Positions 949-64,000 of a stretch of 64,000 nucleotides of DNA are shown in pieces. Source of the stretch: Chiloscyllium plagiosum (Eukaryota). Every line of letters begins with the position of its first letter. The stretch's first letter is position 1. Made by a program: the position numbers and the translations under genes. The stretch is from contig NC_057718.1 in NCBI RefSeq assembly GCF_004010195.1, positions 81,229,912 through 81,293,911 of the forward strand. Direction: 5' to 3'. The notes below the pieces were generated by a model. The model saw only the letters and a list, made by a program, of their open reading frames with translations, made no database searches and was not told where the DNA came from.

Positions 949-1042
949 GATGATTCCCAAAATATTAAGGGATACTGACAGACCATAGAGGGATTTGAAA
1001 AAAGGATGCGAATTTTAAAATTGCGATATTGCTTAATTGGGA

Positions 1043-26452: not shown

Positions 26453-26610
26453 ATGATGTAGAGGTGCCAGTGTTGGACTGGGTGGACAAAGTTAAAAAAT
26501 AACAACACCAGGTTATAGTCCAACACATTTATGATGAAGGAGCAACACTCTGAAAGCTCGTACTTCCAAATAAACCTGTTGGACTATAACCTGGTGTGTG
26601 ATTTTTAACT
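26453..26610 (-). mobile_element. PLE family A mini fold-back element nested in the hAT transposase
   Basis: Tail plus inverted arms, with TGATGAAGGAGCAACACTCTGAAAGCT hammerhead remnant at 26532-26558. Confidence 0.85.
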
Positions 26611-29340: not shown

Positions 29341-29740
29341 AATCCCCAGAAAAAGGGACTGTGCATGGCATGCTAGTCCAGAATGATGGCACATGACTGA
29401 ACGCACAACTTCATTTTGTATATGATACTGACACCAGAGATCCTGCCTGTAGTGAGAGGGAAGAAATGCTGAGCAGGGTGCCATAAAGGCATGATAATGC
29501 AGTCAGTTTTGGAAAATAGCTTGAGAAATCTGATGGCCTCAAAGAGAGAAGCTGCAATGTTTGACCCTAACTGATTTCTGGTTAAATTCAAAAAGGAAAG
29601 GGTTAAGTGAAATGAAAATGGCTGGCTGTTGGAGCTCATGCAGGTTGTGGAAAGGTAGTGAGGTATCCTGAGCAGTTAAACAATGCAGAGGCCGTTCTGA
29701 TGAAGAGCAAAACACTATTCACTATCTTGTTCTCAGTCAC
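28479..29740 (+). repeat. 149-bp direct repeat pair (28479-28627 and 29592-29740)
   Basis: Direct comparison shows 2 substitutions in 149 bp and no indels. Confidence 0.95.
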
Positions 29741-41800: not shown

Positions 41801-43233
41801 TTGGAAAGTTTTTATCAAAGGAGGCTTCATGCATTGCTACAGTGCACTTTGTATATAATACATACTGCTGCAAATGTGCACTGGTGATTGGGAATGAGGG
41901 TATTAGTGATTGTTTAAGGTTGTGCATGAGGTACTGTTTTCTTGGATGGTGTCACAGTCTTGTGTTGCTGGGGTTGCACTCATCCACATAAGTTCGGAGT
42001 ATTCCATTTTGTTCTTGTAGATGCTGAACAGGCTTTGGAAAGGCAGGATTTATGTTTGCTGCGACAGAATTCACAGTGTCTGACATGATCTTGAAGTATG
42101 TATACGGCTGGTACAGTTCAGTTCTGGTCAATAATCACCACCAGAGTGTTGATAGGAGATTCAGGGACAGTCATGATGTGGATTATCCAGGGAGCCAGTT
42201 AGACTCTGTCTTTGAGGTTGGTTATGGCCAGCATTTGTGTGGTGCAAATGTTACCTTCCATTTCCTTACTGTAGTGCTTTAGTACAACTTAATCTTAGCG
42301 TTAACCACATTGCTGTGTGACTGGAGATAGACGTAAACCAGACTGGGTAAGGAGACATATTTCTTCCCCTAAAAAGACATTAATTTCCATTGGGTTGTTA
42401 TACGATTGATAATTTACTCTTATCCTAGGTTTATTAACTAATTGAATTTAAATTCCCCAGCAACTGTGGTAGGATTTTTGTCGGTATCTCTGTGTCAGTT
42501 CCCCAGGTATGCAGATTACTCATCCAGTAATATTATTGCGATTGTACCAGTACCTCTAGTTATATAGTTATCTAAAAGTATTTCACAAATGAAAATGTAT
42601 AAGCAGCCGAACTGTTGCCTGCCAAATATCCTTACAAATGTGCTCCTTTCTGCTTATGGTGGCTCTGGTTTTGTTTCTTCTGTTGCCCTTACCTATTTGA
42701 TAAACATATTTGTATTTGAGGATGTAACAAGCAGAATGGAGAGAGACAAAAATGTATTTGTAATTAAAAATCACACAACAGTTCTAGTCCAACAGGTTTA
42801 TTTGGAATCACTAGCTTTTGAAGTGCTGCTTCTTCATCAAGTGGTTGTCGAGCAGAATCATAAGACAGAGACTTTATAGCAACAGGATTGCAGTGTCATG
42901 GAACGTAATATTAAACACATTTACCTTAAGTCTTTCATTTTTTAGAATGACCATGTCAGTTTCGGTTCCTTCATATGTAAATTCCAGAACATTTTTAAAG
43001 TTACATTCTCAAAATAGCTTTTAATAATAGGTGTCATCTCAACTCAGATAATTGAAGGTGTGAAGTTAAAGTCTGTCTGTGTCCCAATGTTAGATCAGAC
43101 GTATTTTATTTCTAAAGTGTGAATTACAAAATCTTGCATGGATTTATGCAGTTTTTGAGCAAAATAAAATGTAACTATGCAAGTACAAATTTATCCCACA
43201 AGCTTATGTGTGTGTGAGCATGTGCTGGGGAGA

Positions 43234-43273
<40 letters not shown>

Positions 43274-46164
43274 CTGAGTGTAATGGGTATACGTCTGTGA
43301 GAGAGTGTGTGTGTGAATGAGACAGAGAGAGAGAGAATGGAGTAGTGGGGTCACCTGTTGTGTGACATGAACCCAAGGTCCTGGTTGAGCCCATCCCCAT
43401 GGGTACCAAACCTGACTATCAGCCTCTGCTCGACCAGTTTGCGTTGTTGCCCGACCCGAATTCCTCCTTAGAGGGTGGTCACCCAGAGGTCCGGTGCCAA
43501 ATGTACTGGACCACTGACTGGGAAGGAACACTCCTGCCTGGTGAATGTTGTCCATTGCTGTTGTCTTTGCTCAGTCTTGCTAATGTATTATGCCTCAGGC
43601 ATCCTTGCCTGTAATGTATAAGATAGACAACATTGGCAGAGTCACATGAGTACCTGCCACATACTTGGTGGGTGGTGTCTCCACAAGTAATGGTGGTGTC
43701 TGTCGACATTCTGACATGCCTTGCAGCATCTGCCGTGACAAGATTATATGGTGCTGTCCTGAAAGCAACGCAGTTTGCTGCGAATAATGATCTCTTTAGT
43801 TTGGCGGTTGATTAAAGGCGAGAAGGGGATGCATGTGGAAGGTTCTGCTGAGGTGCTCATCCTCATTGATGATGTGTTGCCTGCGAAGAACATGGTGTAG
43901 GTTTTTGGCTCCTGGGAAGTACTGGACAATGGAAGGTACCCTGTCAGTTGCAGCTCGTGTCTGTCTCCTGAGGCGATCATTATAGTTTCTCACTGTGGCA
44001 CGTCCGAACTAGCGGTCGATGAGTTGAGCATTGTACCCTGTTTTTATGAGAGCATGCTTGAGTACTTCCAAGAATCTGTCATGTTCCTCCTCATCTGAAC
44101 AGATCCTGTGTACACGTAGGGCTTGTCCATAGGGGATGGCTGTATTAATATGTTTAGGGCAGAAACTAGAGAAGTGTAGCATCATGAGGTTATCCGTGGG
44201 TTTACAATACAGTGAGGAGCTGAGGTGCCCATCTTTGATTGAGATGCATGTGTCCAAGAATGAGACAGATACTAAAGAGTCGTCCATGGTGAGCTTGCTG
44301 GTGGAATGAAACTCATTGATATCTCTGTATAGTTGTCTCAGTGACACCTCACCATGGGTCCAGAGGTAGAAAATGTCATCAACATACTTGATATATAGTG
44401 TTGGTTGGAGGTCCTATGTGGAAAAGAAGTCTTGTTCAAACTTGTGCATGAAAATGTTGGCATACTCTGGTACAAATTTGGTCCCCATGGCTGTTCCATG
44501 TGTCTGGATGAAGAATGGTTGTAAAGGTGAATATGTTGGGCTCGAGGATGAAGCAGATGAGTTGTAGGACCATGGCAGTTATTGGTATTGAGTACTGAGG
44601 CTGTTGTCGCGATGCCGTCATTCGTGGGGATGCTGGTGTGAGAGTGCTGAATGTTCCCATTTCGACTGGTCCACGGGTGCTGAGTTTCTGTAAGAAATCT
44701 GTAGTATCGCAACAGAAGCTGGGGGTCCATTGTGCAATGGGTTTCAAGATGCCTTTGACATAGCCAGAGAGATTCTCACACAGGGTCCCCTTGCCTGATA
44801 TGATGGGATATCCTGATGTGTTGGCATTGTGTATCTTTGGAAGGCAGTAGAAGTCACCTACGTGAGAAGTGCATGGGATGAGGGTGTGGTGGGAACTCTG
44901 AAGGACTGGATCCAAAGTCCACATCAATGTCATTAGTTCACAGGTGTGCTCTTTGGTCAGATTGGTAGTTGCCTCTAATGTTCCTGGTTGTTCAGTTGTT
45001 GGTACACTTCCCTGCAGTAGTCCATTCTGTTCTGAATGATGATGGCTCCTCCTTTATCTGCTGGTTTGATGACCATATTGCGATTGATTTTGAGAGCATG
45101 GATGACGTTGCATTGTGATTGGGTGATGTTTTGTTCTACCTTGTGGATGCTGCTGATGAATCTGGCATTTATATATTTCTTGACAGTTTGAGCACACACG
45201 TCAAGCTCAGGTCAGCAGTCCTTCGGTGGGGTCCAAGTTGACTCCTCCTACGGATCCTTGTGATGACTGTTCTGTTTCATTGGTGGAATCACTGCTGGCA
45301 GCTTGACACAATTTCCGGAGGTTCATTCATCTGGTGAATTCCTCCATGTCTGCTGCAAGACCCATGGGGTCCATTTTAGTGGTGGGGCAGTACTCAAGCA
45401 TGCTCTCATAAGAACGAGGTACAACGCTCAACTCATCAACCACTAGTTCTGACATGCCACAATGAGAAACCACAATGACCTCCTCAGGAGACAAACACGA
45501 GCTGAAACTGACAGTCTACCCTTTCATTGCCCAGTACTTCCCGGGAGCCGAGAAACTACACCATGTTTTTCGCAGCCTGCAACACATTATCAATGAAGAT
45601 GAGCACCTCGCCAAAACCTTTCCCACGCTTCCCTTTCTCGCCTTTAAACAACCGCCAAACTTTAAACAGATCATTGTTCGCAGCAAACTGCTTGGCCTTC
45701 AGGACAACACCATATAACCCTGTCACAACAGACGCTGCAAAACATGCCAGTGTGTTGACACGGACACCATCATTACATGTGGGGACACCACCCATGATGT
45801 GTGCGGCAGGTAGTTATGTGACTCTGTCAACGTTGTCTATCTCATATGCTGCAGGCAAGGATGCCTTGAGGCATCATACATTGGCTAGACTGAGCAGAGG
45901 CTAGGGCAATGGGTGAATGGACATTGCACAACAATCACCAGACGGGGTGTTCCCTCCCAGTTGGGGAGCACTTCAGCGGTCCGGTACATTCGGCCTCGGA
46001 CCTTTGGGTGACCATCCTCCAAGGCTGACTTCGGGACAGGCAACAATGCAAAGTGGTCAAGCAGAGGCTGAGATAGGCAAGATTGGTACCCATGGGGATG
46101 GTCTCAACCAGGAACTTGGGTTCATGTCACACTGCAGGTGAGCCCACTGCACTCTTTCTACCAA

Positions 46165-46692
46165 CACACCACGCCCCACACACACATGTTCTCCCCCCCC
46201 CCCCACACACACACACCCCCCACACACACACATGCCCCATATGCTGTCACGCCCATATGTTCTCACGCCCTACACATTGTCTCATATGCCCTCATGCACC
46301 CATCTGCACTCACAACCACACATGCACCCTCTCATACATTCACAAGGCTCACACATGCACCTGCACTCACCTCCTGACCTCTCACCCACACAGGCATCCT
46401 TTCATATGCTCTCAGGCTCCACACATGCTCTCACGTCCCACATACGTTCTCACGCATACACCCGCACTTACATCCACATACACGTACCCTCTCATACACT
46501 CACAAACCCTCACCCACAGTCTCGCGCACACATGCACCCTCTGATATGTTCTCTCTCACTCACTCGCGCACTCTCTCTCGCGCGCACATGCTCACACGCG
46601 CGCACACACGTGCACACATGCTGCCTCTCATGCTCACACACAGGTCTCCCCTGAATGCATGCGCGCATGTATATACACACACACACACACAC
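46165..46692 (+). repeat. Degenerate CA-rich low-complexity tract in the PLE 3' UTR
   Basis: CACA/CTCA-rich array. The counterpart (TG)n/(GA)n tract on the other arm is at ~43206-43335. Confidence 0.9.
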
Positions 46693-47082
46693 GCTTGTGG
46701 GGTACGTTTGTACTTGCAGAATTACATTTTATTTCACTCAAAAGCTGCATAACTCCATGCAAGATTCTGTAACTCATACTTCAGAAATAAAACAAGTCTG
46801 ACCGAACATTGGGACACAGATAGATGTGCATTATCAATGCATTATCTGAGCTTAGAGGCACCTGTTGTTAAGTGCATTATCTGAGCTGAGATGGCACCTA
46901 TCAAAAGCTATCTTGAGATGTAACTTTAAAAAAAGTTCTGGGATTTACATGTGAAGGAACCAAATCTAACATGGTCATTGTAAAAGATGAAAGACTTAAG
47001 CTAAATTTGTTTAATATTACATTTCCATTTCACTGCAATCCTGTTGCTATAAATTCTGTGTCTTGTGCTTCTGCTCCACAAC

Positions 47083-47120
47083 CACCTGATGAAGGAGCAG
47101 CACTTTGAAAGCTAATGATT
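47083..47120 (+). ncRNA. Decayed hammerhead ribozyme in the PLE terminus
   Basis: CAC-CTGATGA-AGGAGCAGCACTTT-GAAAGCTA-ATG. The core is intact, but stems I and II are mutated. Confidence 0.6.
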
Positions 47121-48930
47121 CCAACTAAATCTTTTGGACTATAATCTGGTGTTGTGATTTTTAACTTTGTCCACCCCAGGCCAACACCGGCACCTCCAAA
47201 TCATGTATATGTAGTGTATTTGAATTTCCTAAAGGCTTTTATAAAGTATACACGTAAGTTTACTGCAGAAGATAACAGCTCATTGTGTAACTTAGCAAAT
47301 TAGTGTGGATAGAGGTTGTATACGAGGAAACAGGAAGCAGACTGTAACCAGTAGAGTCCATAGGCGCCAATATTGGGATCTTAATGATCTGCATTAGTAA
47401 CTTGAATTAAGGGGTAACTAATCAGCCAAATTTGCTGATAATTCAAAGCATGGTAAGGAAAGCAAGTGAGGATACAAAAGCATATAGACAAATTAGGTGA
47501 GTTAGCAAACATTTGACAGATTATAATGTGAGGAAATGTAAAATTGTTCACCTTGTTTAAAGTATTATTTAAGAGGTGAGTGGCTGCAGAATACTGCAGT
47601 ACAGAGGAATCTGAATTTCCATGTGCTTGAATCAGTAAAGGTTAGCCTACAAGTGTGGCAAGTAATTGAGGTTTGTAATCTGTATTGCATAGGGAAAGGA
47701 GTATAAAAGAATGAAACGTTGGTAGAATTGCTTAGGACATTGGTGAGACTGCATTTGGAGTACTATGTATAATTTTCATCATTTCAGATAAGGACAGAAT
47801 ATACTTGCATTGGAAGCGGTTCAGAGAAGGTACTGTAACTGATTCCTGGCTTTTCTTTTGAGAAACTGTTCAGCAGATTGGGCCAATATTCATCAAGAAT
47901 TTAGAAGAATGAGAGGTAATATTATTTAAACAAAGAAGATTCTGAGAAGGCTTGACAAAATGAAATACTGAGAGGATGTTTGCACTAATGAGTGAATCTA
48001 CAACTAAGAAGCACTGTTTAAAAACAATGTATGTCTCATTTACTACAGATATTAGATGAAATTTCTTCTCTCAGCGGGTTGTTAATCTCTGGTTTTCTCT
48101 TCCACAGACAGTAGTAGAATGTGAAACTATGCTAAAGGACTGTGTTGGACAGATTTTTGATCGACAAGTTGAGCAAACAGGAAAATGGAGTTAAGGCGAC
48201 AATCCAATCAGCCATGATCTCATTGAATGGTAGAGCAGACTTAGGGGGTTGAATGGCCTATTACTGGGCCTTCTATTATGGTCTTGTAATGTTATCTGCC
48301 AATGGTATGCAGTTAGTCACATTTACTGTATTATGTAAATCTATTTGGCAGATATTTTTCTTTATTAAGAATGGGCTTGTGTTTGGGCTTATAAAATTTC
48401 TTGGAATTTACGCATTTTTTGATCCATGTTCTGAATGTATTCTAATTGATTTAAAGATGGGGAAACTTTCAGAATTTCATGTCCAGTCTGATGATTGTCT
48501 TCTTTCCTGCAAAGAATGAGTCTCAAAGATATGTCACTGAAAATATCTTGTAATTCTAACCAACCCCTCATGGTAGCTTCCCATTGGGATAAGGAACTCT
48601 CTTTTTTCATCTCCCTGTGCCAACTGGCAGTTCAACTCAAAGCATATCTTCAATTGCCTCTATTATTTGGATAGTAAATATCAGGAAAATTAAGTTCCAG
48701 GATGATGTGTTGAGGTTGTAGCTAATGATGATACAGATTAACTCTATTTATTATTGCTCTTTATTTAATATATTTTATTTCTCTCAGGTTTGTTTGGTTA
48801 ATTTAAACCTGATGGTATTTTGATTTTTAAGTATTCTGTGTTTCTTTTGAAGACCAAATGAAGCATAAATTTGCCTGTCTCAGTTCATGTGTTATTGTGT
48901 AACAATTTTTTGTGCCAGGATCGGTTGGTT

Positions 48931-49563
48931 ATAGATAGTTATAGAGATGTACAGCATGGAAACAGACCCTTCGGTCCAACCCATCCATGTCGAACAGATA
49001 TCCCAACCCAATCTAGTCCCACTTGCCAGCACCCGGCCCATATCTCTCCAAACCCTTCCTATTCATATACCCACCTAAATGCCTTTTAAATGTTGCAATT
49101 GTACCAGCCTCCACCACATCCTCTGGCAGCTCATTCCATACACGTACCACCCTCTGCGTGAAAATGTTGCCCCTTAGGTCTCTTTTATATCTTTGCCCTC
49201 TCACCCTAAACCTATGCCCTCTAGTTCTGGACTCCCCGACCCCAGGGAAAAGACTTTGTCTATTTATCCTATCCATGCCCCTCATAATTTTGTAAACCTC
49301 TATAAGGTCACCCCTCAGCCTCTGACGCTCCAGGGAAAAGAGCCCCAGCCTGTTCAGCCTCTCCCTGTAGCTCAGATCCTCCAACCCTGGCAACATCCTT
49401 GTAAATCTTTTCTGAACCCTTTCAAGTTTCACAACATCTTTCTGATAGGAAGGAGACCAGAATTGCACGCAATATTCCAACAGTGGCCTAACCAATGTCC
49501 TGTAGAGCCGCAACATGACCTCCCAACTCCTGTACTCCATACTCTGACCAATAAAGGAAAGCA
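48931..49563 (-). mobile_element. Young 5'-truncated CR1 3' fragment
   Basis: Open 183-aa ORF2 C-terminus (LYRTLVRPLLEYCVQFWSP...VWNELP). Very similar to 56260-56873. Possible TSD TGGTT. Confidence 0.95.
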
Positions 49564-49599
49564 TGGTTGCTCCATCTTTTCTAAAACCTCCAACAGATT

Positions 49600-50861: not shown

Positions 50862-51430
50862 GTTATACAGCACGGAAACAGACCCTTCAGTCCAATGTGT
50901 TTGCACCAACCAGGTATCTTAAGCTGATTTCATCCCATTTGCTAGAATATGGCCCATATCACTCTAAAACCTTTCTTTTCAGATATCTATCCAGATGGCT
51001 TTTAAATGTTGTAATTGTACCCGCCACCAACACCACAGCCCTTTCCATACACATTCCACTCTCTGTGAAAATGTTGCCCCTCTGGTCCCTTTTAAATCTT
51101 TCCCCTCTCACCTTAATCTGTACCCTTAACCTATCCTTGAGTTTTGGACTCCCTTTACCCTGGAAAAAAGACCTTAGCTATTCACCTTATATATGCCTGT
51201 CATGATTTTATAAACCTCTATAAGGTCTTCCCTCAGCCTGTGATCTTCCAGGGGCAAAAAACAGCATGTTCAGCCTTTCCCTTTAGCTCAAACTCTCCAA
51301 TCCTGACACCATCCTTGCAAATCTTTTCTGAAGCCTCTCAAATTTAACAACGTCTTTCCGATGGTAGGGAGACCAGATTGAATTCTAAAAGTGGCCTCAC
51401 CAATGTCCTTTAAAGCTGCAACATGACTCT
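50862..51430 (-). mobile_element. CR1 3' fragment
   Basis: Diverged homolog of 48931-49563. Confidence 0.85.
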
Positions 51431-52552
51431 TATACTGATGCACATATTCTAGGGACTTCAAAAGATTTGTATTATTATTTTCTGAGGTGGCTCAGTGTCA
51501 ATGTTCTTATAATGCACCTTAGGATAACTTATCATGTCAAAGTTTTTAAAATAATTCATCCACAGGATGTGGGCTCTGCTGTCTAGGCCAGTATTTACTG
51601 TTGCACTTCCCTAATTGCCCTTGAGGAGGTGGTGGTGACCTGTCACCGTAAACTACTGAAATCCATTTGGTGCAGGTATCCACAATGCTATTAGACAGTG
51701 AGTTATTTAAGTGTCATTTAAGAAGGTGATTCATGGTTCCAAACAAAGATACATCCCAATAAGGAGTAAAGATTCTAAAAGAGGGAGAAGCCAGCCATGA
51801 CTAACAAAGGAAGTTAAGGAGAGTATTATGTTGAAAGAAAGAGGAGGCAAAAGTCAGTGACACCCCCAAAGACTAGGATAAATTCAATATCCAGCAAAGG
51901 AGAAGTAAAACGATAATAAAGGCATAGAACATAAAATTTGATAACAGGAAATTTTTTAAATATATAAAAAGGAAGAGAGGTCAAAATGAACCCATAGGAC
52001 CCTTAGAAAATGTATGGGGAACAAGGAAATAGAGGAGTTGAATAGGTATTTTACATCTCTCTTTACAATGGAAGATTTAAACATCCCATTAATAATAAAG
52101 AATACTAGGGATGAATTAAGAACCATTACTAGAGAAGTAATACTAATGGCACTAAAAGGCAGATAAGTTCATTGGCCCTATGGCTTGCGTACTATGATCC
52201 TAAAAGAGCCAGTTACAGAGATAATGGATGCATTGGTTATAATTTTCTGAAAATCCTTGGATTCTGGAAAAGTACAAAAAATTGGAAAACTGCTGGCGTG
52301 ACACCCCTATGCAAAACAAAATTAACTATAGGCCAATTAGTCTAACATCTATTGTAGGAAAAGTATTGGAAACAATTATTAAGGAAGTAATAACTAAACA
52401 TAATCTAATCAAGCAGTCTCCGTTTAGCTTCATCAAAGGGAAATTGCATCTGACTAATTCAATAGAGTTTTGCGAGGAAGTCTCAACGAGAGTGGACAGA
52501 GCGGAACCAGTTGTTGTTATATTTGAACTTCCAGAAGGTGTTTGACAGAGAA

Positions 52553-52878
52553 CAGGTAGATCCTTTATCCGAAAATTTAAAAACTGAAAAGCTCTGAAAT
52601 CTGAAGTTTTTTTTTGTGAATTTTTTTCTTATTAACAAGGTTGTTTGGCGAGCAAACAGTTAACCCAAGTCGACACCCACTTGATGCATGTCACTCATGT
52701 GATGTGGGGGGGGGGGAAGTGGGCTGTGTGGCCAAGCACATTCTTAGTTAGAAATGTGCTTCTCCGGTAATATTTTTAAAAATTTCACCATTAAACTGTC
52801 ACATTCTGAAAACCAAAAAATTCCGAATTCCGAAAAACAGCTGGTCCCCAGCATTTCAGAGAAAGGAGCTTGCAGCTG
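52553..52878. mobile_element. Tigger/pogo-like MITE (MER46-like)
   Basis: Imperfect TIRs CAGGTAGATCCTTTATCCGAAA and TTTCAGAGAAAGGAGCTTGCAGCTG followed by TA. Inserted within the CR1 FDKVPH codons. Confidence 0.7.
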
Positions 52879-53587
52879 TATCCCACAAAATGTCAAGTCA
52901 TAAGATAAGAGCCCATGGTGCTGACGATAGTATGTTGGCAAGAAACAGCATGTGGAGATGAAAGGGTTCTTTTTCAGTTTGGTGACCTGTGACCAGTGGG
53001 ATATCACAGCAATTAGTGCTGAGATTGCAACTCTTTACAACGTTTATTAGTTACTTGGGAAAAAGGAAGCGAATGTACTATAGCCAAATTTGCAAATGAC
53101 ACAAAATAGGTTAAAGATAGGTTGCGAGAAGAATACAAACAATTTACAGAGAGATATTAATAGTAAGCAGGCAGAAAGTTGGCAATTGGAGTATAATGTG
53201 GGAAAATGTGAAATTGTTCATTTTGGAAGGGAGAACAGAAGAATAGCATAATATTTGAATGGAGAAAAGTTACACAAAGCTGAAACATTAAAGGAACTTC
53301 AGGGTACTTGTGCACTAAAGATAGCACTAGCGCACAAGTGCAGTAAGTAATCAGGAGGGTCAATTGAATGTTGGCCCTTATTTTAAGAGTGTTGGAGAAT
53401 ATGAGTAGGGAAGTCTTATTGAATCTGTGCAAAGTGCTGGAGAAACTACATCAGATGTATTGAGAGCCGTTTTGACCCCATTGAAGAAAGCATATCATTT
53501 CATTGGGACAGTTCAGAGAATGTTCACTGGGTTGGTCCTTGGTATGGAGAGATTGCTTTCTGACCAAAGGGGCCAAACAATTTAGGA

Positions 53588-56500
53588 GGATTCTGGGTAA
53601 TCCAAGATAGAGGACGGGAAAAGTTTCTGGCTGTAACAGTTGCTCCTTTTTTTGAGGTATTTTAGGTGCTGGAGGTGATTTCCTCGAATTCCAGGAGCAG
53701 CAATTACTGTTTTATATGCTGTTGCATTGTTTTGGAACTTTGGAAAAAAAGAGTCAAAACAACAGCAGTTTTAAAAGGGAGAAGAACAGACAAAGGAAGC
53801 ACATGGTCAGGTGAGGTCAGTGCAGGAGAGAAAGAAAGAAAGAAACTGACACAGCCTTTGCTGTTTGAATTCGTGTATTGCTGGACATCAGAGTACATCT
53901 GGGAAAATTAACAAACAGTGAAATTCACAACTGATTTTGGAGGAACTGTTGGGTGAAGTTCACAACACAGAAGCAGATTAGTGTATTGTTGTTTTAAGTG
54001 TGACCTACAGAAAGTTTGTAGTAGAGTAGAGTGTGTTCTTTCTTGATTGTATGTTTTTGGAGATATGTGTCTTGATTAAACTTAAAATATAAGCCATAAC
54101 TATTCATTTAACCTGGTGCAGTGTTTGTAGAGGAATAAGCCGATGTTATTTTCTGGGTCTGTAGATTGTGAAGAAGCAAAAATGGCCTTTAGTAGAGTGA
54201 TATGTACTTGTCTGATGTGGGAGTTAAAGAGAGTTTAAGGGTTACTGCGGATTATATCTGCCATAAATGCTGTTGGTTGCCAATCTTATCAGATCGAATG
54301 GATCATTGGAGAGACAGTTAGAAACAATGAGGAATTTGCAACAGCAACAGTATTTGATGGATGGCAGTTATAGGAAGGGGGGGAAGGTCTCAGATACAGT
54401 CACATAGATGGGTTAACTCCAGGAAGGGTAAGAGAGGTAGGCAGCTAGTGCAGGAGTCTTTTGTGGCTATACCAATTTCAAACAAGTATGTTGTTTTGGA
54501 AAATGTAGGGGATGATGGATTCTCAGGGGAGCGTAGCACGAACAGCCAAGTTTCTGGTATTGAGACTGGCTTTAATGCAACGAGGGGTACGTTGAGTTCC
54601 AAGAGGTCAGTTGTGTTAGGGGATTCTCTAATCTGAGGTATAGACGGACGTTTCTGTGGCCAGCAGCGAAAAAGTATAATGGTGTGTAGCTTCCCTGGTG
54701 CCAGGATCAAGGATGTCTCAGAGAGGGTGCAGAATGTTCTTACAGGGGAGAGGAGCCAGCAAGAGGTCATTGTCCACATTGGAACCAACGACATAGGAAG
54801 GAAAAAGGTTGAGAGTCTGAAGGGAGATTACAGAGAGTTAGGCAGGAATTTAAAAAAGGAGGTCCTCGAGAGTAGTAATGTCTGGATTACTCCCAGTGCT
54901 ACGAACTATTGAGGGCAGGAATAGGAGGATCGAGCAGATGAATGCATGGCTGAGGAGCTGGTATCTGGGAGAAGGATTCACATTTTTGGATTAATGAATC
55001 TCTTTTGGGGTAGAAGTGACCTGTACAAGAAGGACGGATTGCACCTAAATTGGAAGGGGACTAATATACTGGCAGGGACATTAGCTAGAGCTGTTCGGGA
55101 GGATTTAAACTAGTAAGGTGGGGGGAGGGGGGTTTGGTGGTGGGACCCAGGGAGATTGTGAGGAAAGAAATCAATCTGAGACCGGTACAATTGAGAACAG
55201 AAGTGAGTCAAACAGTCAGGGCAAGCAGGGACAAGGTAGGACTAATAAATTATACTGCATTTATTTCAATGCAAGGGGTCAAACAGGGAAGGCAGATGAA
55301 CCCATGACACAGTTAGGAACATGGACTGGGATATCATAGCAATTACAGAAACATGGCTCAGGGATGGGCAGGACTGACAGCTTAATGTTCCAGGATACAA
55401 ATGCTCCAGGAAGGGTAGAAAGGGAGGCAAGAGAGGAGAGGGAGTGGCATTTTTGGTAAGGGATAGCGTTGCAGCTATGTTGAAGGAGGATATTCCTGAA
55501 AATACATCCAGGGAAGTTATTTGGATGCAGCTGAGAAATAAGAAAGGGATGATCACCTTATTGGGATTGTATTATAGACCCCCCAATAGTCAGAGGGAAA
55601 TTGAGAATAATAGGGTGATTATGGTAGGGGATTTTAACTTTCCAAACATAGACTGGGACTGCCATAGTGTTAAGTGTTTAGATGGAGAGGAATTTGTCAA
55701 GTGTGTACAAGAAAATTTTCTGATTCAGTATGTGGATGTACCTACAAGAGAAGGTGATAACTTGACCTACTTGGGCAGGTAACTGAGGTGTCAGTTGGGG
55801 AGCACTTTGGGGCCAGCGACCATAATTCTATTCGGTTTAAAATAGCGATGGAAAAGGTTGTTTTTCAGACTGGAGGCCTGTGACCAGTGGGGTGCCACAA
55901 GGATCGGTGCTGGGTCCTCTACGTTTTGTCATTTATATAAATGATTTGGATGCGAGCATAAGAGGTACAGTTAATAAGTTTGCAGATGATACCAAAATTG
56001 GAGGTGTAGTGGACAGCGAAGAGGGTTACCTAGTATTACAAAAGGTTCTTGACCAGATGGGCCAATGGGCTGAGAAATGGCAGATGGAGTTTAATTCGGT
56101 TAAATGCGAGGTGCTGCATTTTGGGAAAGCAAGTCTTAGCAGGACATATACACTTAATGGTAAGGTCCTAGGAAGTGTTGCTGAACAAAGAGTGCAGGTT
56201 CATAGCTCCTTGAAAGTGGAGTCGCAGGTAGATAAGATAGTGAAGAAGGTGTTTGGTATGCTTTCCTTTATTGGTCAGAGTATTGAGTACAGGAGTTGGG
56301 AGGTCATGTTGCGACTTTACAGGACATTGGTTAGGCCACTGTTGCAATATTGCGTACAATTCTGGTCTCCTTCTTATTGGAAAGATGTTGTGAAACTTGA
56401 AAGGGTTCGAAAAGATTTACAAGGATGTTGCCAAGGTTGGAGGATCTGAGCTACAGGGAGAGGCTGAACAGGCTGGGGCTGTTTTCCCTGGAGCGTTGGA

Positions 56501-56873
56501 GGTTTAGGGGTGACCTTATAGAGGTTTACAAAATTGAGGGGCATGGATAGGGTAAATAGACAAAGTCTTTTCCCTGGGGTCGGGGAATCCAGAACTAGAG
56601 TGCACAGGTTTAGGGTGAGCGGGGAAAGATATAAAACAGACCTAAGGGGCAACTTTTTCACGCAGAGGGTGGTACGTTTATGGAATGAGCTGCCAGAGGA
56701 AATGGTGAATGCTGGTACAATTGCAATATTTAAAAGGCATTTGAATGGGTATATGAATAGGAAGGGTTTGGAGGGATATGGGCCAGGTGCTGGCAGGTGG
56801 GATGAGATTGGGTTGGGATGTCTGTTCAGCATGGACAGGGTCTGTTTCCGAGCTGTATATCTCTCTGACTCTA
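53588..56873 (+). mobile_element. Younger CR1 LINE, 5'-complete, with ORF1 (Zn finger + SGNH esterase) and an internally deleted ORF2
   Basis: 5' UTR, ORF1 from 54181 (MAFSRVICTCLMWE; VVLGDSL; VIVHIGTND), APE endonuclease (IAITETWL, YYRPP, GDFNFP, SDHN), RT (GVPQGSVLGP, YINDLD, KFADDTK) and a GACTCTA tail. Confidence 0.95.
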
Positions 56874-58170
56874 TTCATTAAAATTTAGAAGAATGAGAGG
56901 TGACTTCATTGACACATATTGAATTTAGGGGATTTGCAAGGGTAAATTCTGAGAAAGTGTTTCCCTTCATGGGAGAGTCTAAGACCAGAGGGCATTGTCT
57001 CATAATGAAGGGATGGCAACTTAAGACTGATGAAGAGTTTCTTCTGAGTGGTGAAAATTTTTGGAACTCCTTACCACAGAGAACTCTGGGGACAGAGAGC
57101 TTGTGTATCTTTAAGGCTAAGATATATTCCTGATCAGTCGGGGAATCGAGGGTTATAGGAAAAGGGCAAGAAAATGGCCATGAGGAATTTTTGATAAGCC
57201 AAGATCCTATTGAATGGTGGACCAAGCTTGAGTGGCTGAATGATCTACTGCTATTTTATGGTCTTAAACATTAGCTGTTGATGCTTTATTGCATCATAAC
57301 AGTCCCCAGGTGACATGATGCATGAAGACCCAGGTCCTGGCCAAATTTTGGGAGCAGGTCATTTGCAGACATAAAACTTGTAATGATGCATCATTAATAC
57401 TTGTACTAATTTGCTGGAAGGAAATCCATGATTGGATAGGCAGAAAAGATGTCCAAAAGAACACAGTCAAATGCATATGTTCCTTCTTTCTGCCTACAGT
57501 GAAGGTGTTGTTATTATTAAGGTACCTAATCTATATTCCATATTTTGTCTGTAAAAGATTAGGGCTCCAACCGGTTTAAAGATTATGTAATCCTGCCTTC
57601 AAATCTGACAAAACTTCCATAGACTTGTTGCCAGCTGCACAAGATCCCCATGGTGAAAGTTATTTCACACCTGATAAAAACATTGATTTTGAAAAGGTGC
57701 CTTTGACTGTTGTTAATTGGAAGAAACAAATTTAGTAATCTTTGCTCTTGAATCTGACTTGAGATGAAGGGCTGATTCTCTCCAGCGGTGAAGGTCTACA
57801 TAACTGAGCTCCATCCAAATAAATGGACAGTTCTGTTGCTTCAATTTGCTTTGCTGTAATATTGTGGCTGTCTAAATCAGATGACCAGGTAGCAAAAGTT
57901 ATTGCATATTCATGATTTTGATCAGAGATTCTGAACTATTTTCTGCTGCACCCTCATTTTTATACTCTTATTAAGCATGACCACTAGCATGACCCCAACA
58001 TCAGTGAAAACAAAACAGCAACAAAGTGACTTAACATTCTGTTCATAATTGTTAAACTTCATGTGTTATAGGTTAACATATGAAAATTGCATGAATATTA
58101 CAGTCTGAATTTTCAAAATAATTTGTAACCAAGTTATTATATATACTTGTGCCTAGGTTTTTTTCCCTTG

Positions 58171-58420
58171 GTTGATTTGATTTATTGCGGTCACATGTAT
58201 CTAAGGACAGTGAAAAGCTTTGCTTTTTGAACAGTACGGGCAGATCATCACAAATAAGGGCATACAGATCATAGGATGCTTAGACAGAGCAAGGCATACA
58301 GGTTACAACTGCACAGGAGATGCGCACAGCAAGATTAACATTATTTGAATTTAGAGAGTCCGTTCTAAAGAACTGTTCCTAACCTGTTGATGCAATTCAA
58401 TCTTCTGTATCTTCTACCTG
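58171..58420 (-). mobile_element. Rex1/Babar 3' fragment
   Basis: Homologous to 10668-10940. Confidence 0.8.
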
Positions 58421-59014
58421 TAACAGGAAACTCAAAGGAACTCTTCTTCAACTCCAACACACATTGCCATCAGTCCATCTCCCCACCTTCACACACACAC
58501 ACACCACTTCCCAAACCCCTCCCTCACTACTCATGCACACATTCAGCAGCAAACCCCTCCCCACTCTCTTGCTCACTCAGCAGTAGCCCCTGTTCCACAC
58601 CTCCCTCTTTGCTCCTCACTCAGCAGCAACACTTGCTAACTTCCCACCCCCATATTTGATCAGTAGCCCTTCTTCCCAAGCCCCTCAACCTCCACTCACG
58701 CAGTAGCCTCTCTTCACAATTGCAACCTTCCCCTAATGCCCACATGCTCCAGACTCTGCTTTATTTCTTTTGGTCTAGTTTGTGATACTAGTGAAGGAAA
58801 GTCACTACTCTGCGATAAGGCACCTCTCCAGCAGGTAGTAAGGGGCAGGAACACAAAAAAATCGTAAAGCTTTCATTCTGCTTACTGACATTTTGCATTA
58901 CTTTCCAGTTCTTCCTGCACTCAATGACTGAATTACACCTGCTGGCTTCTGTTTGCATCACATACACAGCTTCACATCAATAGGTCCAGGCTTTCACAGC
59001 AGAAGCTCTGGATA

Positions 59015-59325
59015 GGGGCAGCACGGTGGCTCAGTGGTTAGCTCTGCTGCCTCTCAGCACCAGGGACTCAGATTCAGTTCCAGCCTTGGGTGACTGTCTG
59101 TGTGGAGTTTGCACATTCTCCCCATGTTTGTGTGGGTTTCCTTCAGGTGCTCTGGTTTCCTCCCACAGTCCAAAGATATGCAGGTCAGGTGAATTGGTCA
59201 TGCTAAATTGTCCATGGTGTTAGGTGCATTAGTCAGAGGGAAATGGGTGGGTTACTCTTTAGAGGATCAGTGTGGACTTGATGGGCCAAAGGGCCTGTTT
59301 TCACATTGTAGGTAATCTAACCTAA
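59015..59325 (+). mobile_element. V-SINE (HE1-like)
   Basis: A box TGGCTCAGTGG at 59027-59037, V-domain and CR1-like tail. Confidence 0.9.
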
Positions 59326-59898
59326 AAAGAAAAGTGAACAAATATATTCTAGTTTATTTTTCTAATGAAATTGGTAAATTCATGTGAAAGTTAGGCTGAT
59401 AATGTCAATAATATATAAATAAATCCATTAACTTGCCTTTATTCTAACTCATCTGCATAGCTAATGTAAAGGGTGAGCATCAAGCATTCCAAACCAACAT
59501 CTACTATGTAAAATATTTCCATTTCACCATTTATTTAACATTTTATTTGAAGTGAAAATTGAGTGCAAGTGGGAGGCTATGTTTCTCACCCAATGCTCCA
59601 CTTTTATTCCTCCAAAGATGAGCACATGTTTAACACAAATGAAATACGTACTAACCATGATGAGGTTCAGACTTCAGTTATTTAATGTGACACTGAAAGG
59701 AGCAATGGGTGGTTATGTGTATTTGCTAAATTAAGAAATCCTTTGATTGAGAAAAGGTGGTATCACTGATATTTATTTTTCTGGGGAGGTGGAAATTGTG
59801 CAAACTTTCAAGAATGGGAAATAAATCCTGGCCAATCCTTGTTTTAGATGAACTAAGTCAAACGTTAAATAATGGAATAACTCCAATACACTATCACA

Positions 59899-60160
59899 TT
59901 GTTGTGGTTCTGTTCGCCGAGCTGGGAATTTGTGTTGCAGACATTTCGTCCCCTATCTAGGTGACATCCTCAGTGCTTGGGAGCCTCCTGTGAAGCGCTT
60001 CTGTGCTGTTTGTGATCACAGAAGCGCATCACAGGAGGCTCCCAAGCACTGAAGATGTCACCTAGACAGGGGACGAAACGTCTGCAACACAAATTCCCAG
60101 CCCGACGAACAGAACCCAACAACGAGCACCCGAGCTACAAATCTTCTCCCAAACTTTGAA
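59899..60160. mobile_element. PLE family C fold-back element (~106-bp inverted arms, 11-nt loop, 38-nt tail)
   Basis: Arms 59899-60005 and 60017-60122 are near-perfect complements. The unpaired tail is 60123-60160. Confidence 0.9.
60046..60085 (+). ncRNA. Minimal type-I hammerhead ribozyme
   Basis: GCA-CUGAAGA-U-GUCACC-UAGACA-GGGGAC-GAA-ACGU-C-UGC: stem I GCA/UGC, palindromic ACGU, GUC triplet. The mirror copy on the minus strand (59937-59976) reads GAAAUGUC. Confidence 0.85.
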
Positions 60161-61289
60161 CTGTATCACTTTAGAAACACTCTGGACAGGCAGAGTGCAT
60201 TAATTGCACTAAAGGAAGGAAATGAAGCAGAGCACTTGCTCTGTGGGGTGCATTGAGACAACAGGTCAGTGTTGCCTTGTTCCAATTTTTCTTTCAAATG
60301 CCTGTTATTTTTGTCAGTGTCCAAAAGCCCAAAGTTCTGCAAGATATACTTTCTATAATAATATGGATTCTATTGACAAAAAGTTAAAGGTATAATAATT
60401 GCAGGTGATAGTATCTTGAGCAAACCTTGAGCAGGAATTTGTTCATTTTAATTCATTGTTCATGACTTTTTGATTATTTTTCTAATCAACCTGTTCAGAG
60501 ATGTTATTACATACATCTGGAGCAAGGTGGGACATGAACCCAGGCCTCCCAGTCCAAGGCTAGGGACATTACCACTGCATCACAAAAGCAACAACTTAAA
60601 CCTGCCGTTGTTCCATAATTAAATAGTTACCGTGTAGAATTAACAATAAAGGGCCATGCTTCCAATAAGAAAAAATTGTTTTGTCGCTTTTGGTGATAAA
60701 GAGCTTCTTTATATCATAGTTTCTGTACAAACGGTTTGCCTCGTTCTCTCTGTTTTTGCATATGCTTCTTAATTAATGCTTTCCTAATCCTGATCTTCAA
60801 AAGGTTTTGCTTCCATTTAAATTGATGAAAATATTAGGAGGACTTGCAGTCCCAAGCACACACACTTCTTGATATTTATAGTGAGGAAAGGAAAGTTTGG
60901 GGAGCACAGTGTTGTGAGAAAAACTTTGTAAGGTTGGGAATGCAGAGGCCTTCCAAACTTAAAAACCATTTTTTTCCTTGAGTTTGTTACCAAACAATTG
61001 ATCAAATTAACAGACTGGCCAGCAGCAGGAGGCCATGACTGGCGAACCTTAAATGTCTTCTGCAATCAGGAGGGAAAAGGAAGTAAGCAATTGGGCTGCC
61101 TCGAGTGATTATGGTCGGTGTAAGAGAAATTATTAAAGGGTGATCTTGGAGTCGACAGTAGTGAAAGATGGGAGATTACAACGTAGATCATAGGCAGAAG
61201 AGAGACGCTGTTTTGAGGAAGTAAAAGCTTGCTTGTGCCTTGGGGAGTACCAGCATCCACCACAAACTGATATCCCTGTACTCCCACAG

Positions 61290-61960
61290 GGTGACATAAT
61301 AGATCCCATAGTGCTATTTTGGAAAATAATTGAGGAGTTATTGTCAGTGTGCTGGCGAAGAGTTATTCCTTCGTTATAGAATCACAGAACTGATATAGCA
61401 TGAAAGGAGGACACTCAGTCCTGGCTCTCCAAGTTAGCAAATTCCCTCTTACCTTCTCCCCATAACCCTGCACATTCTTCCTTTTTAAAAAAGCAGTCGA
61501 TAATTTCCTAAAGCAATTCAATTGACTGTGCTTCCACCACTTTCTTAAGGCAGTACATTCCAGTCTTTAACTGTTTATTGCATAAAAATGTCTCTCCTAT
61601 GTTGCCTCTGCTTCTTTAATAAATTGCTTTAAAATTAGTGCTCGCTGATTTTTCTTATCCTTTTCCATACAGGAAGCATTTTCCCTCCTGGTTCTGTCCT
61701 GACCTCTCAAGACCTTGAAAATTGCATTCAAATCTCCTCTCCACGGACAACATACCTACCCATTCACTCTCCGCATTATTGAAGCTCCTCAACCCCAGAA
61801 CTGGTTTTCTAGTCATTATCACATTGCTGTTTGTGGGATCTTGCTGTATGCAAGTTAGCTGTTTCCTAAATTAGAATTGACTGAGCTTCAAAAGTAATTA
61901 ATTGCTGTGATTCACTCTGGGATATTGTGTGTTCTTAAAGAGTGCAGAAGAAAGGCAAGT
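61290..61960 (+). mobile_element. DeuSINE split by a minus-strand CR1 fragment (~61375-61805)
   Basis: AGATCCCATAGTGCTATTTTGGAA before the insert and GTCATTATCACATTGCTGTTTGTGGGATCTTGCTGT after it. Confidence 0.65.
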
Positions 61961-61998
61961 CTTATCTTTTTTTTTCCATAAGATGTACGAGCAGAATT

Positions 61999-62312
61999 GG
62001 GCAGCGCTTGCTGCCACCCAGAATCGATTCCAGTCTTGGGCAACTGTCTGTGTGGAGTTCACACATTCTCCCTGCATCAGCTTGTGTTTCCTCCAAGTAC
62101 TCTTGTTTCCTCTCCCATCTAAAGATGTGCATTTTAGATGGAGTGGCCATGCTAATTCACCCATAGTGTCCAGGGATGTGCAGGCTAGATGGATTAGCTA
62201 TGGGAAATGCAGGGTTACAGGGATAGGGGGTGATCTGGGTAGGATGCTCTTTGGAGGGATGGTGTGCACTCGATGGGCTGAATGACCTGCCTCTGCACTG
62301 TGTGGATTTGAT
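61999..62312 (+). mobile_element. V-SINE (HE1-like), older copy
   Basis: V-domain CTGTGTGGAGTTCACACATTCTCCC with a CR1-like tail. Confidence 0.8.
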
Positions 62313-62344
62313 CATTCTGTCTTCCTGGAACCAAACAACATCCT

Positions 62345-63680
62345 TCTCACTGTCAAGAGGAGGCCATTCAGCCCACTGAGTCTGCTCCATCACTCAATGA
62401 GATTATGGTTGATTTGATAATCCTCAACTCCACTTTGTTCCCTTTTCTCGAGAGCTTTTGATGCTCTTACTGATTGAAAAATCTATGTTATCTCAGCCCT
62501 GAATGTAGTTATTGATGCAGCCTCAACATTGTATCAGTGGCAAAGAATTCACCACTTGTCACAATCTTCGAGAAGAATTCCTGTTCATTTCTGTCTTAAA
62601 TGTACAACCCTATATTCTGAGATTATACCCTCTGGTCTCAGGTTCTTCCCACAAGGGGAAGCAACCTTCCTGCATCTCCTTTATCAATCCTCTCAGAATT
62701 CTGTTTCAATAAGATCACCTTCCTTTCTTCTAAACTTCACGAGTACAATACCAACCTATTCAATCTCACCTCATAAGGCAGTTCTGCCATTCCTTGCATC
62801 AGTGAACTGACCCTTCTCTGGATTCCTCCAATACCGGTGTATCTTTCCTGAAATAAGGGGTCTAAAGTATTCCGACTGTGGTCTGACTAAAACCTCGCAA
62901 CTTTCACACTTTGAAATAATGGCTGACGTTTCATTTGCCTACACTATTACCTACAGATTGCTTTTTGTGATTCATGCATAAGGATTCCCAAGTCCCTCTG
63001 TTCTGTAGCTTTCTGTAGTCTTTCGCCATTTAAATAACATTTCGCTCTTCTGTTCTCGTGTTTTCCGCAAGTTGGATTCCATTTGTCAAGTTTTTGCCCA
63101 CTCATTTAACCTATCTATATCCCTCTCCACATTCTGTGACATCCTCATCACTTGCCTTCCAAACTATTTTTGTATCATCTGTAAATTTGGCCATATTTTG
63201 CTCACTTTCCTCATCCAAGTCATTAATATATATTCTGCATAATATGTATTGTGCATTCAACACTGTGGTACTCTGCTGACTATAGATTGTCATCTTGAAA
63301 ATGTCCCTTATCCCAAATCTGTTTTCTATTAGTTAGCCATGCTAATGTACTATTTCGAACACCATGGGCTTCAAATTCCTTGTGAAAATCCAAATGTTCC
63401 CTTCATTTATCCTGCTTGTTACCTTCTCTAAAAATTCTAGTAAATTTGTCGGGCATGATTTTCACATCAAGAAGCCATGCTGACTCTGCTTGATCATATT
63501 AAATATTTCTAAATGCTCATCCTTTATAATAAACTCCAACATTTTCCCAATAACATATGTTAAGCTAACTGGCCCATAGTTAACTCTCTCTTTTTTGTTT
63601 TTTTTAAACAAAGGTATTACATTGGCAATTTGCCAACCCTTTTTCCAGAATCGGAGGATTACTGGAAGATTACTACTAAC
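62345..63680 (-). mobile_element. CR1 ORF2 3' half, decayed
   Basis: IYINDLDEE...AKFTDDTKI, with the 3' tail at ~62360-62440. Confidence 0.85.
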
Positions 63681-64000
63681 AATAGAAGTTGCATATCTGC
63701 GTCAATTCTATTTGTTTCTACATGAATGCCGAAGGACATAATAGGCTGAAAAAGGCATTGAACCAACTGAAACATAGCTGTCACTTGTTTGCATGCAGTG
63801 GAATGATTGCCTTTTTTTTGAAGTTAAATTTTGCCAAATTTTTCTTAAATATCACACTGCTGTCACAAACAGAACAATGAGACAATTATATCAACAATGA
63901 TTGTGAACAGTACTATAAGTACAGTAATTGTAAAAAGTATTATAAGTATTGTTTTTGTTTTGCCGGCTGCTCATTTTTGATGTCTGTTCGTAAACAAGTA

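What the first reader, a model, noticed from the sequence alone, without database searches (positions are those of the whole stretch)
59899..60160. Near-perfect 224-bp hairpin carrying opposed hammerheads (GUC type)
The two ~106-bp arms each encode a hammerhead on opposite strands. The plus copy (60046-60085) is intact with an ACGU palindrome, and the minus copy has a C-to-T change in it. Any read-through transcript would contain one sense ribozyme and its antisense, so the long dsRNA stem should mask the ribozyme and be a Dicer/ADAR substrate (inference). The sequence is unrelated to family A, which implies a second PLE lineage.
Basis: partly seen in the sequence, partly recalled or inferred. 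Interest (0 to 1): 0.7.

Follow-up and report, generated by a model that had tools for sequence, protein, structure and literature searches.

The report
Truncated Penelope retroelement fold-back stub
This hairpin is two short, head-to-head end pieces of a very abundant Penelope-type jumping gene in what looks like a shark genome, each carrying that family's usual small hammerhead-ribozyme motif, so it is a tidy example of a known insertion by-product and not a new RNA device.

Summary
The hairpin is real: arms 59899-60005 and 60017-60122, 100 of 107 positions alike, folding z = -21, one minimal hammerhead per arm. The plus copy is intact; the minus copy has ACGU changed to AUGU. Both arms are the pseudo-LTR of a Penelope/Poseidon-type retroelement. 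They translate into the start of one shark RT protein (P0001) and the end of a shark RT/GIY-YIG protein (P0014, 17/17). The layout (head-to-head truncated copies, 38-bp tail on one side, junction palindrome, possible target duplication) is the published PLE insertion pattern. Opposed minimal hammerheads were reported in 2014, recur in 3 of 80 unrelated PLE loci, and five more such hairpins lie in this window. The family is very high-copy. The seven arm differences look like private decay. Masking of the ribozyme is true in folding terms but matters little: lone minimal hammerheads are reported inactive, and one RNA run gave no reads on the unique flanks. Dicer or ADAR action is untested. The scan noted this kind of element many times elsewhere in the same genome. 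Ordinary.

The parts
59892..59897 (+). Left copy of a candidate target-site duplication (TATCAC), 1 nt from the element end
   Evidence: Same hexamer at 60164-60169; 0.8% of 20,000 random flank pairs give such a match at the offsets allowed, which were chosen after seeing it
59899..60011 (-). Inverted, 5'-truncated pseudo-LTR stub without tail (left arm; pairs over 59899-60005)
   Evidence: Matches P0014 residues 447-463 at 17/17 and P0001 residues 4-41 at 33/38; loose ends pile at 59899 and 60011
59937..59976 (-). Minimal type I hammerhead motif, decayed: ACGU to AUGU at 59943, loop II change at 59955
   Evidence: both letters depart from the family majority
60011..60020 (.). Head-to-head junction: perfect 10-bp palindrome; 60012-60016 do not match the family sequence seen in the loose ends
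   Evidence: Read directly from the sequence; family continuation, table 7
60017..60122 (+). Direct, 5'-truncated pseudo-LTR stub (right arm)
   Evidence: Matches P0001 residues 7-44 at 31/38 and P0014 residues 449-463 at 14/15
60046..60085 (+). Minimal type I hammerhead motif with all core letters intact, ACGU palindrome, predicted cut after 60082
   Evidence: layout as in PMC4209133
60055..60057 (+). ATG formed by hammerhead positions A9, the extra U and G10.1; likely start codon of the family ORF, 28 nt before the cut site
   Evidence: Aligns with the first Met of P0003 and a Met at the start of P0004; position
60063..60065 (+). TAG in hammerhead loop II; stop codon of the frame in which P0014 ends
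60123..60160 (+). 38-bp PLE tail, present on the right arm only
   Evidence: Loose ends with mixed flanks at 59899 (mirror of 60122) and at 60158/60160; continues P0001 in frame to residue 54
60164..60169 (+). Right copy of the candidate target-site duplication, 3 nt from the element end

Best explanation
A dead-on-arrival insertion of a very high-copy Penelope/Poseidon-type retroelement, now decaying neutrally. Shown: both arms are the family's pseudo-LTR, which overlaps the end and the start of the RT/GIY-YIG ORF and carries a minimal hammerhead; the arms meet 5' end to 5' end; one ends at the family's tail-less end (+68 from the ATG) and the other at the tail end (+106). Inferred: the element's endonuclease nicked both target strands, and reverse transcription started once at each of the two internal start sites that flank the tail, as shown in vitro for Anolis Poseidon. 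Both copies stopped after 113-144 nt and were joined head to head through a short fold-back at the junction. The left arm holds 6 family bases (60006-60011) that the right arm lacks, so it was not simply copied from the present right arm. The stub has no ORF and stops just short of the family's TATA-like box, so it cannot copy itself. If read through on either strand it would fold into a ~107-bp duplex that blocks both hammerheads, with the antisense arm made first in both directions; this is a side effect of the layout.
For: Protein links. Clade: 0 of 38 relatives with both RT and GIY-YIG motifs (of 121 proteins held) have the linker C-x2-5-C-xx-C; family A has it. Copy number: summed contig depth 0.28-2.4 million over the element against 5-26 on the flanks in two DNA runs (a rough indicator, not a count). 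Two element ends with mixed flanks, and other head-to-head joints of the family with different break points, e.g. 59939-60054, 59955-60070, 59993-60056 (tables 5, 5c, 7). All 7 arm differences are one-sided departures from the family majority, 2 left and 5 right; none of the 40 rows shown is a matched change in both arms (68 weaker rows not shown). Five more PLE-stub hairpins in the window, z -9 to -16. Same layout before PLE ORFs in L018 and L028; 3 of 80 related loci have opposed hammerheads. Literature: PMC4209133, PMC8557442, PMC3846280, PMC11167929.
Against: No single full-length DNA copy of the family was seen; the link rests on two predicted proteins that overlap each other (P0001, P0014). 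The empty site was not seen and the target duplication is only 6 bp and 1-3 nt off the ends. Pfam gave RVT_1 but no GIY-YIG call for P0014 (only P0119, E = 0.024); the endonuclease is called from its motif. The two-primer route is inferred from one junction. Seven differences are too few to exclude weak selection on the stem.
Confidence: 0.88

Rival explanations
1. The locus is transcribed by read-through and acts as a hairpin RNA: an ADAR substrate or a source of siRNAs against the parent PLE.
For: Very stable duplex on both strands, -194.5 (plus) and -228.8 (minus) kcal/mol; five A-C mismatches on the plus strand, a context ADAR favours (my own knowledge, no call); Penelope inverted repeats gave siRNAs in transgenic Drosophila (PMC3681739, passages).
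Against: Zero RNA depth on the unique flanks in run X21; 484 of 485 records fit only partly and 17 of 485 were at least 99% alike, so they come from other copies; the A>G differences at 59943, 59955, 60053 and 60105 are also in DNA contigs; no pile-up of read ends. No host exon among 142 ORFs of 42 aa or more in 52000-64000 (the one weak hit failed). This is weak: one polyA single-cell run, 2% read, no small-RNA data.
Confidence: 0.07
2. A self-propagating non-autonomous fold-back element (MITE-like or retrozyme-like) that moves as a hairpin unit.
For: Compact, bounded by a possible target duplication; family extremely abundant; organism B appears to share the insertion, which shows it persists.
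Against: Other copies continue into shared family sequence beyond 60011, and head-to-head joints differ in position from copy to copy; no second copy of this unit in the window; hammerheads are opposed, not tandem as in retrozymes (bioRxiv 2026.07.22.740005, part 1).
Confidence: 0.04
3. An assembly or library artefact (fold-back read).
For: Inverted repeats can arise from fold-back artefacts (my own knowledge).
Against: Arms differ at 7 positions; four DNA runs of two samples hold 0.92 of the words of 59600-60500 and three runs of a second study 0.58-0.77; contigs of a second organism reach into both element ends from the flanks.
Confidence: 0.01

Closest known systems
Complex insertions of EN+ Penelope-like elements: inverted 5'-truncated pLTR, one-sided tail, TSD, junction palindrome (Arkhipova 2013, PMC3846280; Craig 2021, PMC8557442; passages read)
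   Same: Head-to-head inverted pLTR, 38-bp tail on one side (published 30-40 bp), palindrome at the inverted junction, short target duplication, pLTR encoding the first residues of the ORF and the tail extending them
   Different: Here both copies are cut down to 113 and 144 nt, so no ORF body remains and the whole insertion is one hairpin; the candidate duplication is 6 bp against 8-10 bp in the rotifer examples
Minimal hammerheads of metazoan PLEs (Cervera and de la Pena 2014, PMC4209133; parts 1-2 of 4 read)
   Same: Type I, no helix III, palindromic 15.2-16.2, one extra nucleotide between 9 and 10.1, G10.1-C11.1; the paper reports pairs 100-700 bp apart on opposite strands and ties lone motifs to truncated PLEs
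   Different: Stem I is only 3 bp and stem II has an A-G mismatch; the passages read name fishes, coelacanth, frog and reptiles, not sharks; activity of this motif is untested
Poseidon_Ac of Anolis carolinensis (Frangieh 2024, PMC11167929; parts 1-2 of 4 read)
   Same: ORF begins at hammerhead stem II with the cut site 26 nt after the start codon (28 here); two reverse-transcription start sites flank the tail; both strands are nicked and extended
   Different: One published start site lies at +111 to +118 of the ORF; here the two ends are at +68 and +106. Sequence relatedness to Poseidon_Ac was not tested
Penelope inverted-repeat copies that give siRNAs in Drosophila (Evgen'ev 2013, PMC3681739; passages read)
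   Same: PLE copies with inverted repeats able to form double-stranded RNA
   Different: Those were transcribed, with siRNAs mapped; here no transcript or small RNA was seen

Membership tests
EN+ Penelope-like element (parent family) | pLTR next to an ORF with PLE-type RT (DKG, YxDD) | tested here: met
   Arm plus tail is in frame with P0001 residues 4-54; P0001 has DKG and YVDD and RVT_1 at E = 3.9e-11. Shown through proteins of other copies, not at this locus
EN+ Penelope-like element (parent family) | C-terminal GIY-YIG endonuclease with two cysteines inside the core | tested here: met
   P0014 has VVYKIPCKDC..HYIG and ends in the arm's peptide, 17/17; Pfam GIY-YIG did not call P0014 and scored P0119 only weakly
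EN+ Penelope-like element insertion | Inverted 5'-truncated copy at the 5' end and a 30-40-bp tail on one side | tested here: met
   Head-to-head arms; tail 60123-60160, 38 bp
EN+ Penelope-like element insertion | Short target-site duplication | tested here: inconclusive
   6-bp match 1 and 3 nt from the ends, 0.8% by chance with offsets chosen afterwards; empty site not seen
Penelope/Poseidon clade | No C-x2-5-C-xx-C zinc finger in the RT-EN linker | tested here: met
   0 of 38 relatives with both domains have it; absent in P0014, P0003, P0004
Penelope/Poseidon clade | RT groups with named Penelope/Poseidon references in a tree | not tested
   No named reference sequence was among the hits; the tree has none. 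Hydra and other clades are excluded only by motifs
Neptune clade (family A of the window) | Linker zinc finger and sequence likeness to family A | tested here: not met
   Family A has C-x4-C-xx-C; its RT is 24-25% identical to P0001; no DNA likeness
Minimal PLE hammerhead | Core CUGANGA and GAAA-NN-UH, extra nucleotide before stem II, palindromic helix III remnant | tested here: met
   Plus copy fully; minus copy with AUGU in place of ACGU
Minimal PLE hammerhead | Self-cleavage (as dimer or protein-assisted) | not testable with these tools
   No pile-up of RNA ends, which is not a test of catalysis
Non-LTR retrozyme | Tandem units, each with a hammerhead in the same orientation | tested here: not met
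   Two opposed motifs, no tandem unit
MITE-like fold-back element | Fixed unit with the same ends and interior at many loci | tested here: not met
   Variable junctions and continuation into PLE body in other copies; only the best-supported rows were shown
microRNA precursor | Match to a curated family at its gathering score | tested here: not met
   Best 37.1 bits against a gathering score of 88; generic hairpin matches
Hairpin-RNA / endo-siRNA or edited inverted-repeat locus | Locus-specific transcript with A-to-I edits or 21-22-nt products | tested here: inconclusive
   No flank reads in 2% of one polyA run; no small-RNA data

The most novel reading that the evidence does not exclude
At family scale, shark genomes may hold thousands of such head-to-head pLTR stubs. 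Those inside transcribed regions would be a shark counterpart of inverted Alu pairs: a dispersed source of double-stranded RNA that ADAR edits and Dicer cuts into siRNAs aimed at exactly the stretch that holds the parent's start codon, stop codon, ribozyme and reverse-transcription start sites. The element's own abortive insertions would then build its brake. This locus would be one member, with no sign yet that it is expressed.
Probability: 0.12. Interest if true: 0.5.

Novelty: new member of a known kind. Interest (0 to 1): 0.12.

Why it matters
As a single locus it matters little. It is a clean small example of how Penelope-like elements insert: both internal start sites were used once each, in opposite directions. 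It shows that Neptune-type and Penelope/Poseidon-type families coexist in this genome and both leave fold-back stubs. One practical warning: four of the five plus-strand A-C mismatches sit where the family majority letter is G, so reads from other copies mimic A-to-I editing here; only reads anchored in the loop or flanks can test editing. If the family-scale silencing idea held, it would give cartilaginous fishes a large, unstudied source of double-stranded RNA.

Tried and rejected
Exact-pattern scans for the hammerhead found 0 matches in metagenome contigs and 0 in viral contigs; the protein scan of viral contigs found no relative. No RNA holder was listed among indexed runs; this is no evidence on expression. 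Rfam has no model that catches the motif; its miRNA matches are far below gathering scores. PDB search with P0001 gave only 2 weak unrelated matches. A weak MGAT4 C-terminal Pfam match at 60838-60978 (E = 0.005 among 142 queries) was followed as a possible host exon and found no support; ORFs before 52000 and ORFs under 42 aa were not scanned, so an intronic position stays open. The sigma-70 scan does not apply to a eukaryote and was ignored. The many joints '59899-60123, opposite strands' were read as ordinary arm-plus-tail copies that fit the left arm better because of the right arm's 1-bp deletion, not as inversions. A>G differences in RNA were rejected as editing because DNA contigs show them too. 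The idea that the extra hammerhead nucleotide is generally the U of a start codon was rejected as a rule: 7 of 32 motifs in related loci read ATG there, and in the 2 of these that I translated (L018, L024) the ATG frame closes after 17 and 33 codons. My first wording 'tail-to-tail' was wrong; the arms are head to head. The tree is the quick version only and is not used for the verdict. Lunse et al. 2016 is not held and is cited only through a review. No supplements were opened; those of PMC4209133 may list shark motifs.

Full report
Observation. Arms 59899-60005 and 60017-60122 enclose an 11-nt loop and span 224 bp; 100 of 107 aligned positions agree, with six substitutions and one 1-bp gap. 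The plus strand folds at -194.5 kcal/mol, z = -21.4 against 100 shuffles; the minus strand folds at -228.8 because five of the six mismatches become G-U pairs. Each arm holds a minimal type I hammerhead: a 3-bp stem I, CUGANGA, one extra U, a stem II with one A-G mismatch, GAAA, then ACGU and C17. The plus copy (60046-60085) keeps every core letter; the minus copy (59937-59976) has AUGU in place of ACGU, which loses the self-pairing of the palindrome (-1.7 against +2.6 kcal/mol). A descriptor written after seeing the motif found 3 hits in the window and a mean of 0.0 in 50 shuffles. Rfam found no hammerhead among 15 matches at E <= 5.

The parent. No genome is held and the window has no other copy of this sequence, so I searched proteins with the right arm's open frame. 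Both hits (2 of 2 candidates) are named Chiloscyllium punctatum proteins. P0001 carries a PLE-type reverse transcriptase (DKG and YVDD motifs; RVT_1, E = 3.9e-11). Its residues 4-41 match the left arm at 33/38, residues 7-44 match the right arm at 31/38, and after the right arm's 1-bp deletion the match goes on through the tail to residue 54. Among 544 relatives of P0001 (best 120 listed), P0014 is 88% identical to it, runs through a GIY-YIG motif with two internal cysteines and ends in a peptide that the left arm encodes at 17/17 in another frame. The arm is therefore the pseudo-LTR: it holds the ORF's stop codon (60063-60065, in hammerhead loop II) and its likely start codon (60055-60057, made of A9, the extra U and G10.1). 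That the window itself is from a shark is my inference from these hits.

Lineage. Of 121 proteins held, 38 have both the RT and the GIY-YIG pattern, and 0 of those 38 have the linker zinc finger whose absence marks Penelope/Poseidon (PMC8557442, passages). Family A in the window has that finger, its RT is 24-25% identical to P0001, and its terminal DNA shares at most 8 nt with the arm.

The family in sequencing runs. I laid four of the 24 listed runs on 59450-60650. Summed contig depth is 0.28-2.4 million over the element and 5-26 on the flanks in the two DNA-type runs, with 17,315 and 20,299 records laid. The tool warns that this is no copy number, but the family is clearly huge. Loose ends with mixed flanks pile at 59899 and at 60158/60160, the two family ends, 38 bp apart, on either side of the tail. 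Past 60011 other copies continue into one shared sequence (agreement 0.71-0.9) that contains TATAAA on the sense strand; this locus stops short of it. Other head-to-head joints appear with different break points (59939-60054, 59955-60070, 59993-60056). All seven arm differences are one-sided departures from the family majority: 59943 and 59955 on the left; 60028, 60053, 60102, 60105 and the deletion near 60116 on the right. None of the 40 rows shown is a matched change in both arms (68 weaker rows not shown). Contigs of organism B reach from each flank into the element by 27 and 24 nt (records 20, 23), below the tool's 31-letter rule for bridging, so the shared insertion is suggested, not proven. 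Its flanks differ by about 3.4% (36 letters over 1071, my hand sum of records 17, 18, 20, 23, 24; record 19 duplicates 18), against 6.5% between the arms, which fits an insertion older than the A/B split.

RNA. In run X21 (polyA single-cell, about 2% read) 485 records were laid; 484 fit only partly, 17 were at least 99% alike, and the unique flanks had zero depth. The A>G differences at 59943, 59955, 60053 and 60105 are the family's majority or common letter and stand in DNA contigs too. No place had many read ends. This gives no support for read-through, editing or cleavage, but it is a weak test. No host exon turned up among 142 ORFs of 42 aa or more in 52000-64000; the one candidate failed.

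Masking. In the full hairpin all eight hammerhead pairs tested have probability 0.000 on both strands, and in either direction the antisense arm is made first. But in isolated arms stem II pairs reach only 0.015-0.29 and stem I at most 0.016. Cervera and de la Pena found no cleavage by a single minimal motif and low cleavage by dimers (PMC4209133, parts 1-2 of 4; also the review PMC6765202, passages). The Anolis Poseidon motif cut only with protein, and cutting was not needed for insertion (PMC11167929, parts 1-2 of 4). So the masking is real in a folding sense and probably of no consequence.

How ordinary is the layout. The window holds five more hairpins of PLE-type stubs: four of family A (33808-33977, 26480-26610, 22339-22427, 36236-36372) and one of an apparent third family (1042-1193), z -9 to -16. 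Among 80 metagenome loci kept from 518 that encode RT relatives, 29 of 80 carry a minimal hammerhead (32 motifs; 0-3 in 10 shuffled sets), 3 of 80 carry opposed ones, and two minus-strand copies show the same ACGU to AUGU change. L018 and L028 fold into the same head-to-head hairpin just before the ORF. In print: dual minimal hammerheads 100-700 bp apart on opposite strands (PMC4209133); an inverted 5'-truncated copy plus a 30-40-bp tail (PMC8557442, passages); inverted pLTRs with tail, 8-10-bp target duplications and junction palindromes, mostly head to head (PMC3846280, passages); siRNAs from Penelope inverted repeats (PMC3681739, passages). Two searches for shark PLE hammerheads gave one paper each: a review whose one 'shark' mention is the animal's head shape (PMC6155905, passages) and a whale shark genome paper seen only as a listing. 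I did not find this family described, but supplements and Repbase were not seen. The scan's own notes list 105 of 187 findings in this genome under the words Penelope, hammerhead, hairpin, and the eight shown reach the same general reading or concern the same elements; they are unchecked notes and I count them as no evidence.

Mechanism. Shown: pLTR identity, head-to-head layout, one arm at each family end, one-sided differences. Inferred: the endonuclease nicked both strands; reverse transcription began once at the tail end and once at the tail-less end, matching the two internal start sites and two-strand extension shown for Anolis Poseidon; both copies stopped early and were joined at a junction that now reads as a 10-bp palindrome (60011-60020). 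The left arm has six family bases that the right arm lacks, so plain fold-back copying of the present right arm does not explain it; a later small deletion in the loop would. A 6-bp repeat beside both ends (59892-59897, 60164-60169; 0.8% by chance with offsets chosen afterwards) may be the target duplication; 3 of 7 other PLE stubs tested show repeats of 8-12 bp.

Verdict. Observation confirmed; PLE origin and second lineage confirmed; functional reading unsupported. A new member of a known kind, interest 0.12. The boldest reading still open is a family-wide source of double-stranded RNA that restrains the parent element (probability 0.12).

Noticed in passing
window 33808-33977, 26480-26610, 22339-22427, 36236-36372: Four more fold-back stubs of the Neptune-type family A, z -9 to -16; the one at 33808 has an 8-bp flanking repeat (33803, 34006).
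   Followed up: partly
window 1042-1193: Hairpin of an apparent third PLE family with a decayed hammerhead-like core; no likeness to family A or B beyond 11 nt.
   Followed up: partly
window 42764-44069 and 45386-47204: Long inverted pair of broken Neptune-type PLE copies (RT, linker zinc finger, GIY-YIG) with an 11-bp flanking repeat with one mismatch.
   Followed up: partly
window 13863-14339: Family A stubs in inverted orientation about 300 bp apart, bounded by a 12-bp exact flanking repeat; the sequence between them was not examined and could be captured DNA.
   Followed up: no
window 60055-60082 and proteins P0001, P0003, P0004: The hammerhead is also coding sequence: the start codon sits at A9-U-G10.1 and the GAAA-CGU-C core reads K-R-L at residues 8-10; the same Met to K-R-L spacing is kept in a fluke protein and an unnamed one, so cleavage would cut the start codon off the ORF. 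Their DNA was not seen.
   Followed up: partly
proteins P0001, P0003, P0009, P0044, P0084, P0098: The nearest named non-shark relatives of this shark PLE protein are fluke and tapeworm proteins at up to about 50-55% identity, and a quick tree puts the shark rows in an unresolved group with flukes. Could be database bias or old horizontal transfer; not tested.
   Followed up: partly
window 60475-60590: A second high-copy repeat 315 bp to the right of the element (summed depth up to 230,000); looks like a tRNA-derived SINE on the minus strand (label from recall).
   Followed up: no
window 59025-59326, with copies near 30726, 17348, 12036, 62016: Dispersed SINE-like repeat family, 75-84% alike between copies (label from recall).
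   Followed up: no
window 54637-57045 and 48937-49597: Broken LINE with esterase-like, AP-endonuclease and RT Pfam matches; its 3' part is repeated at 48937-49564 (90%) and 50864-51427.
   Followed up: no
window 28479-28627 and 29592-29740: 149-bp direct repeat, 98.7% identical, 1113 bp apart; could be the terminal repeats of a young element.
   Followed up: no
window 60838-60978: Weak Pfam match to the MGAT4 C-terminal domain with a donor-like site; no support from two protein searches, probably chance.
   Followed up: yes
L018:1704-2059, L028:1732-2222, L063:2889-4420: Unrelated PLE loci from public metagenomes with opposed hammerheads; L018 and L028 fold into long head-to-head hairpins just before the ORF.
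   Followed up: yes
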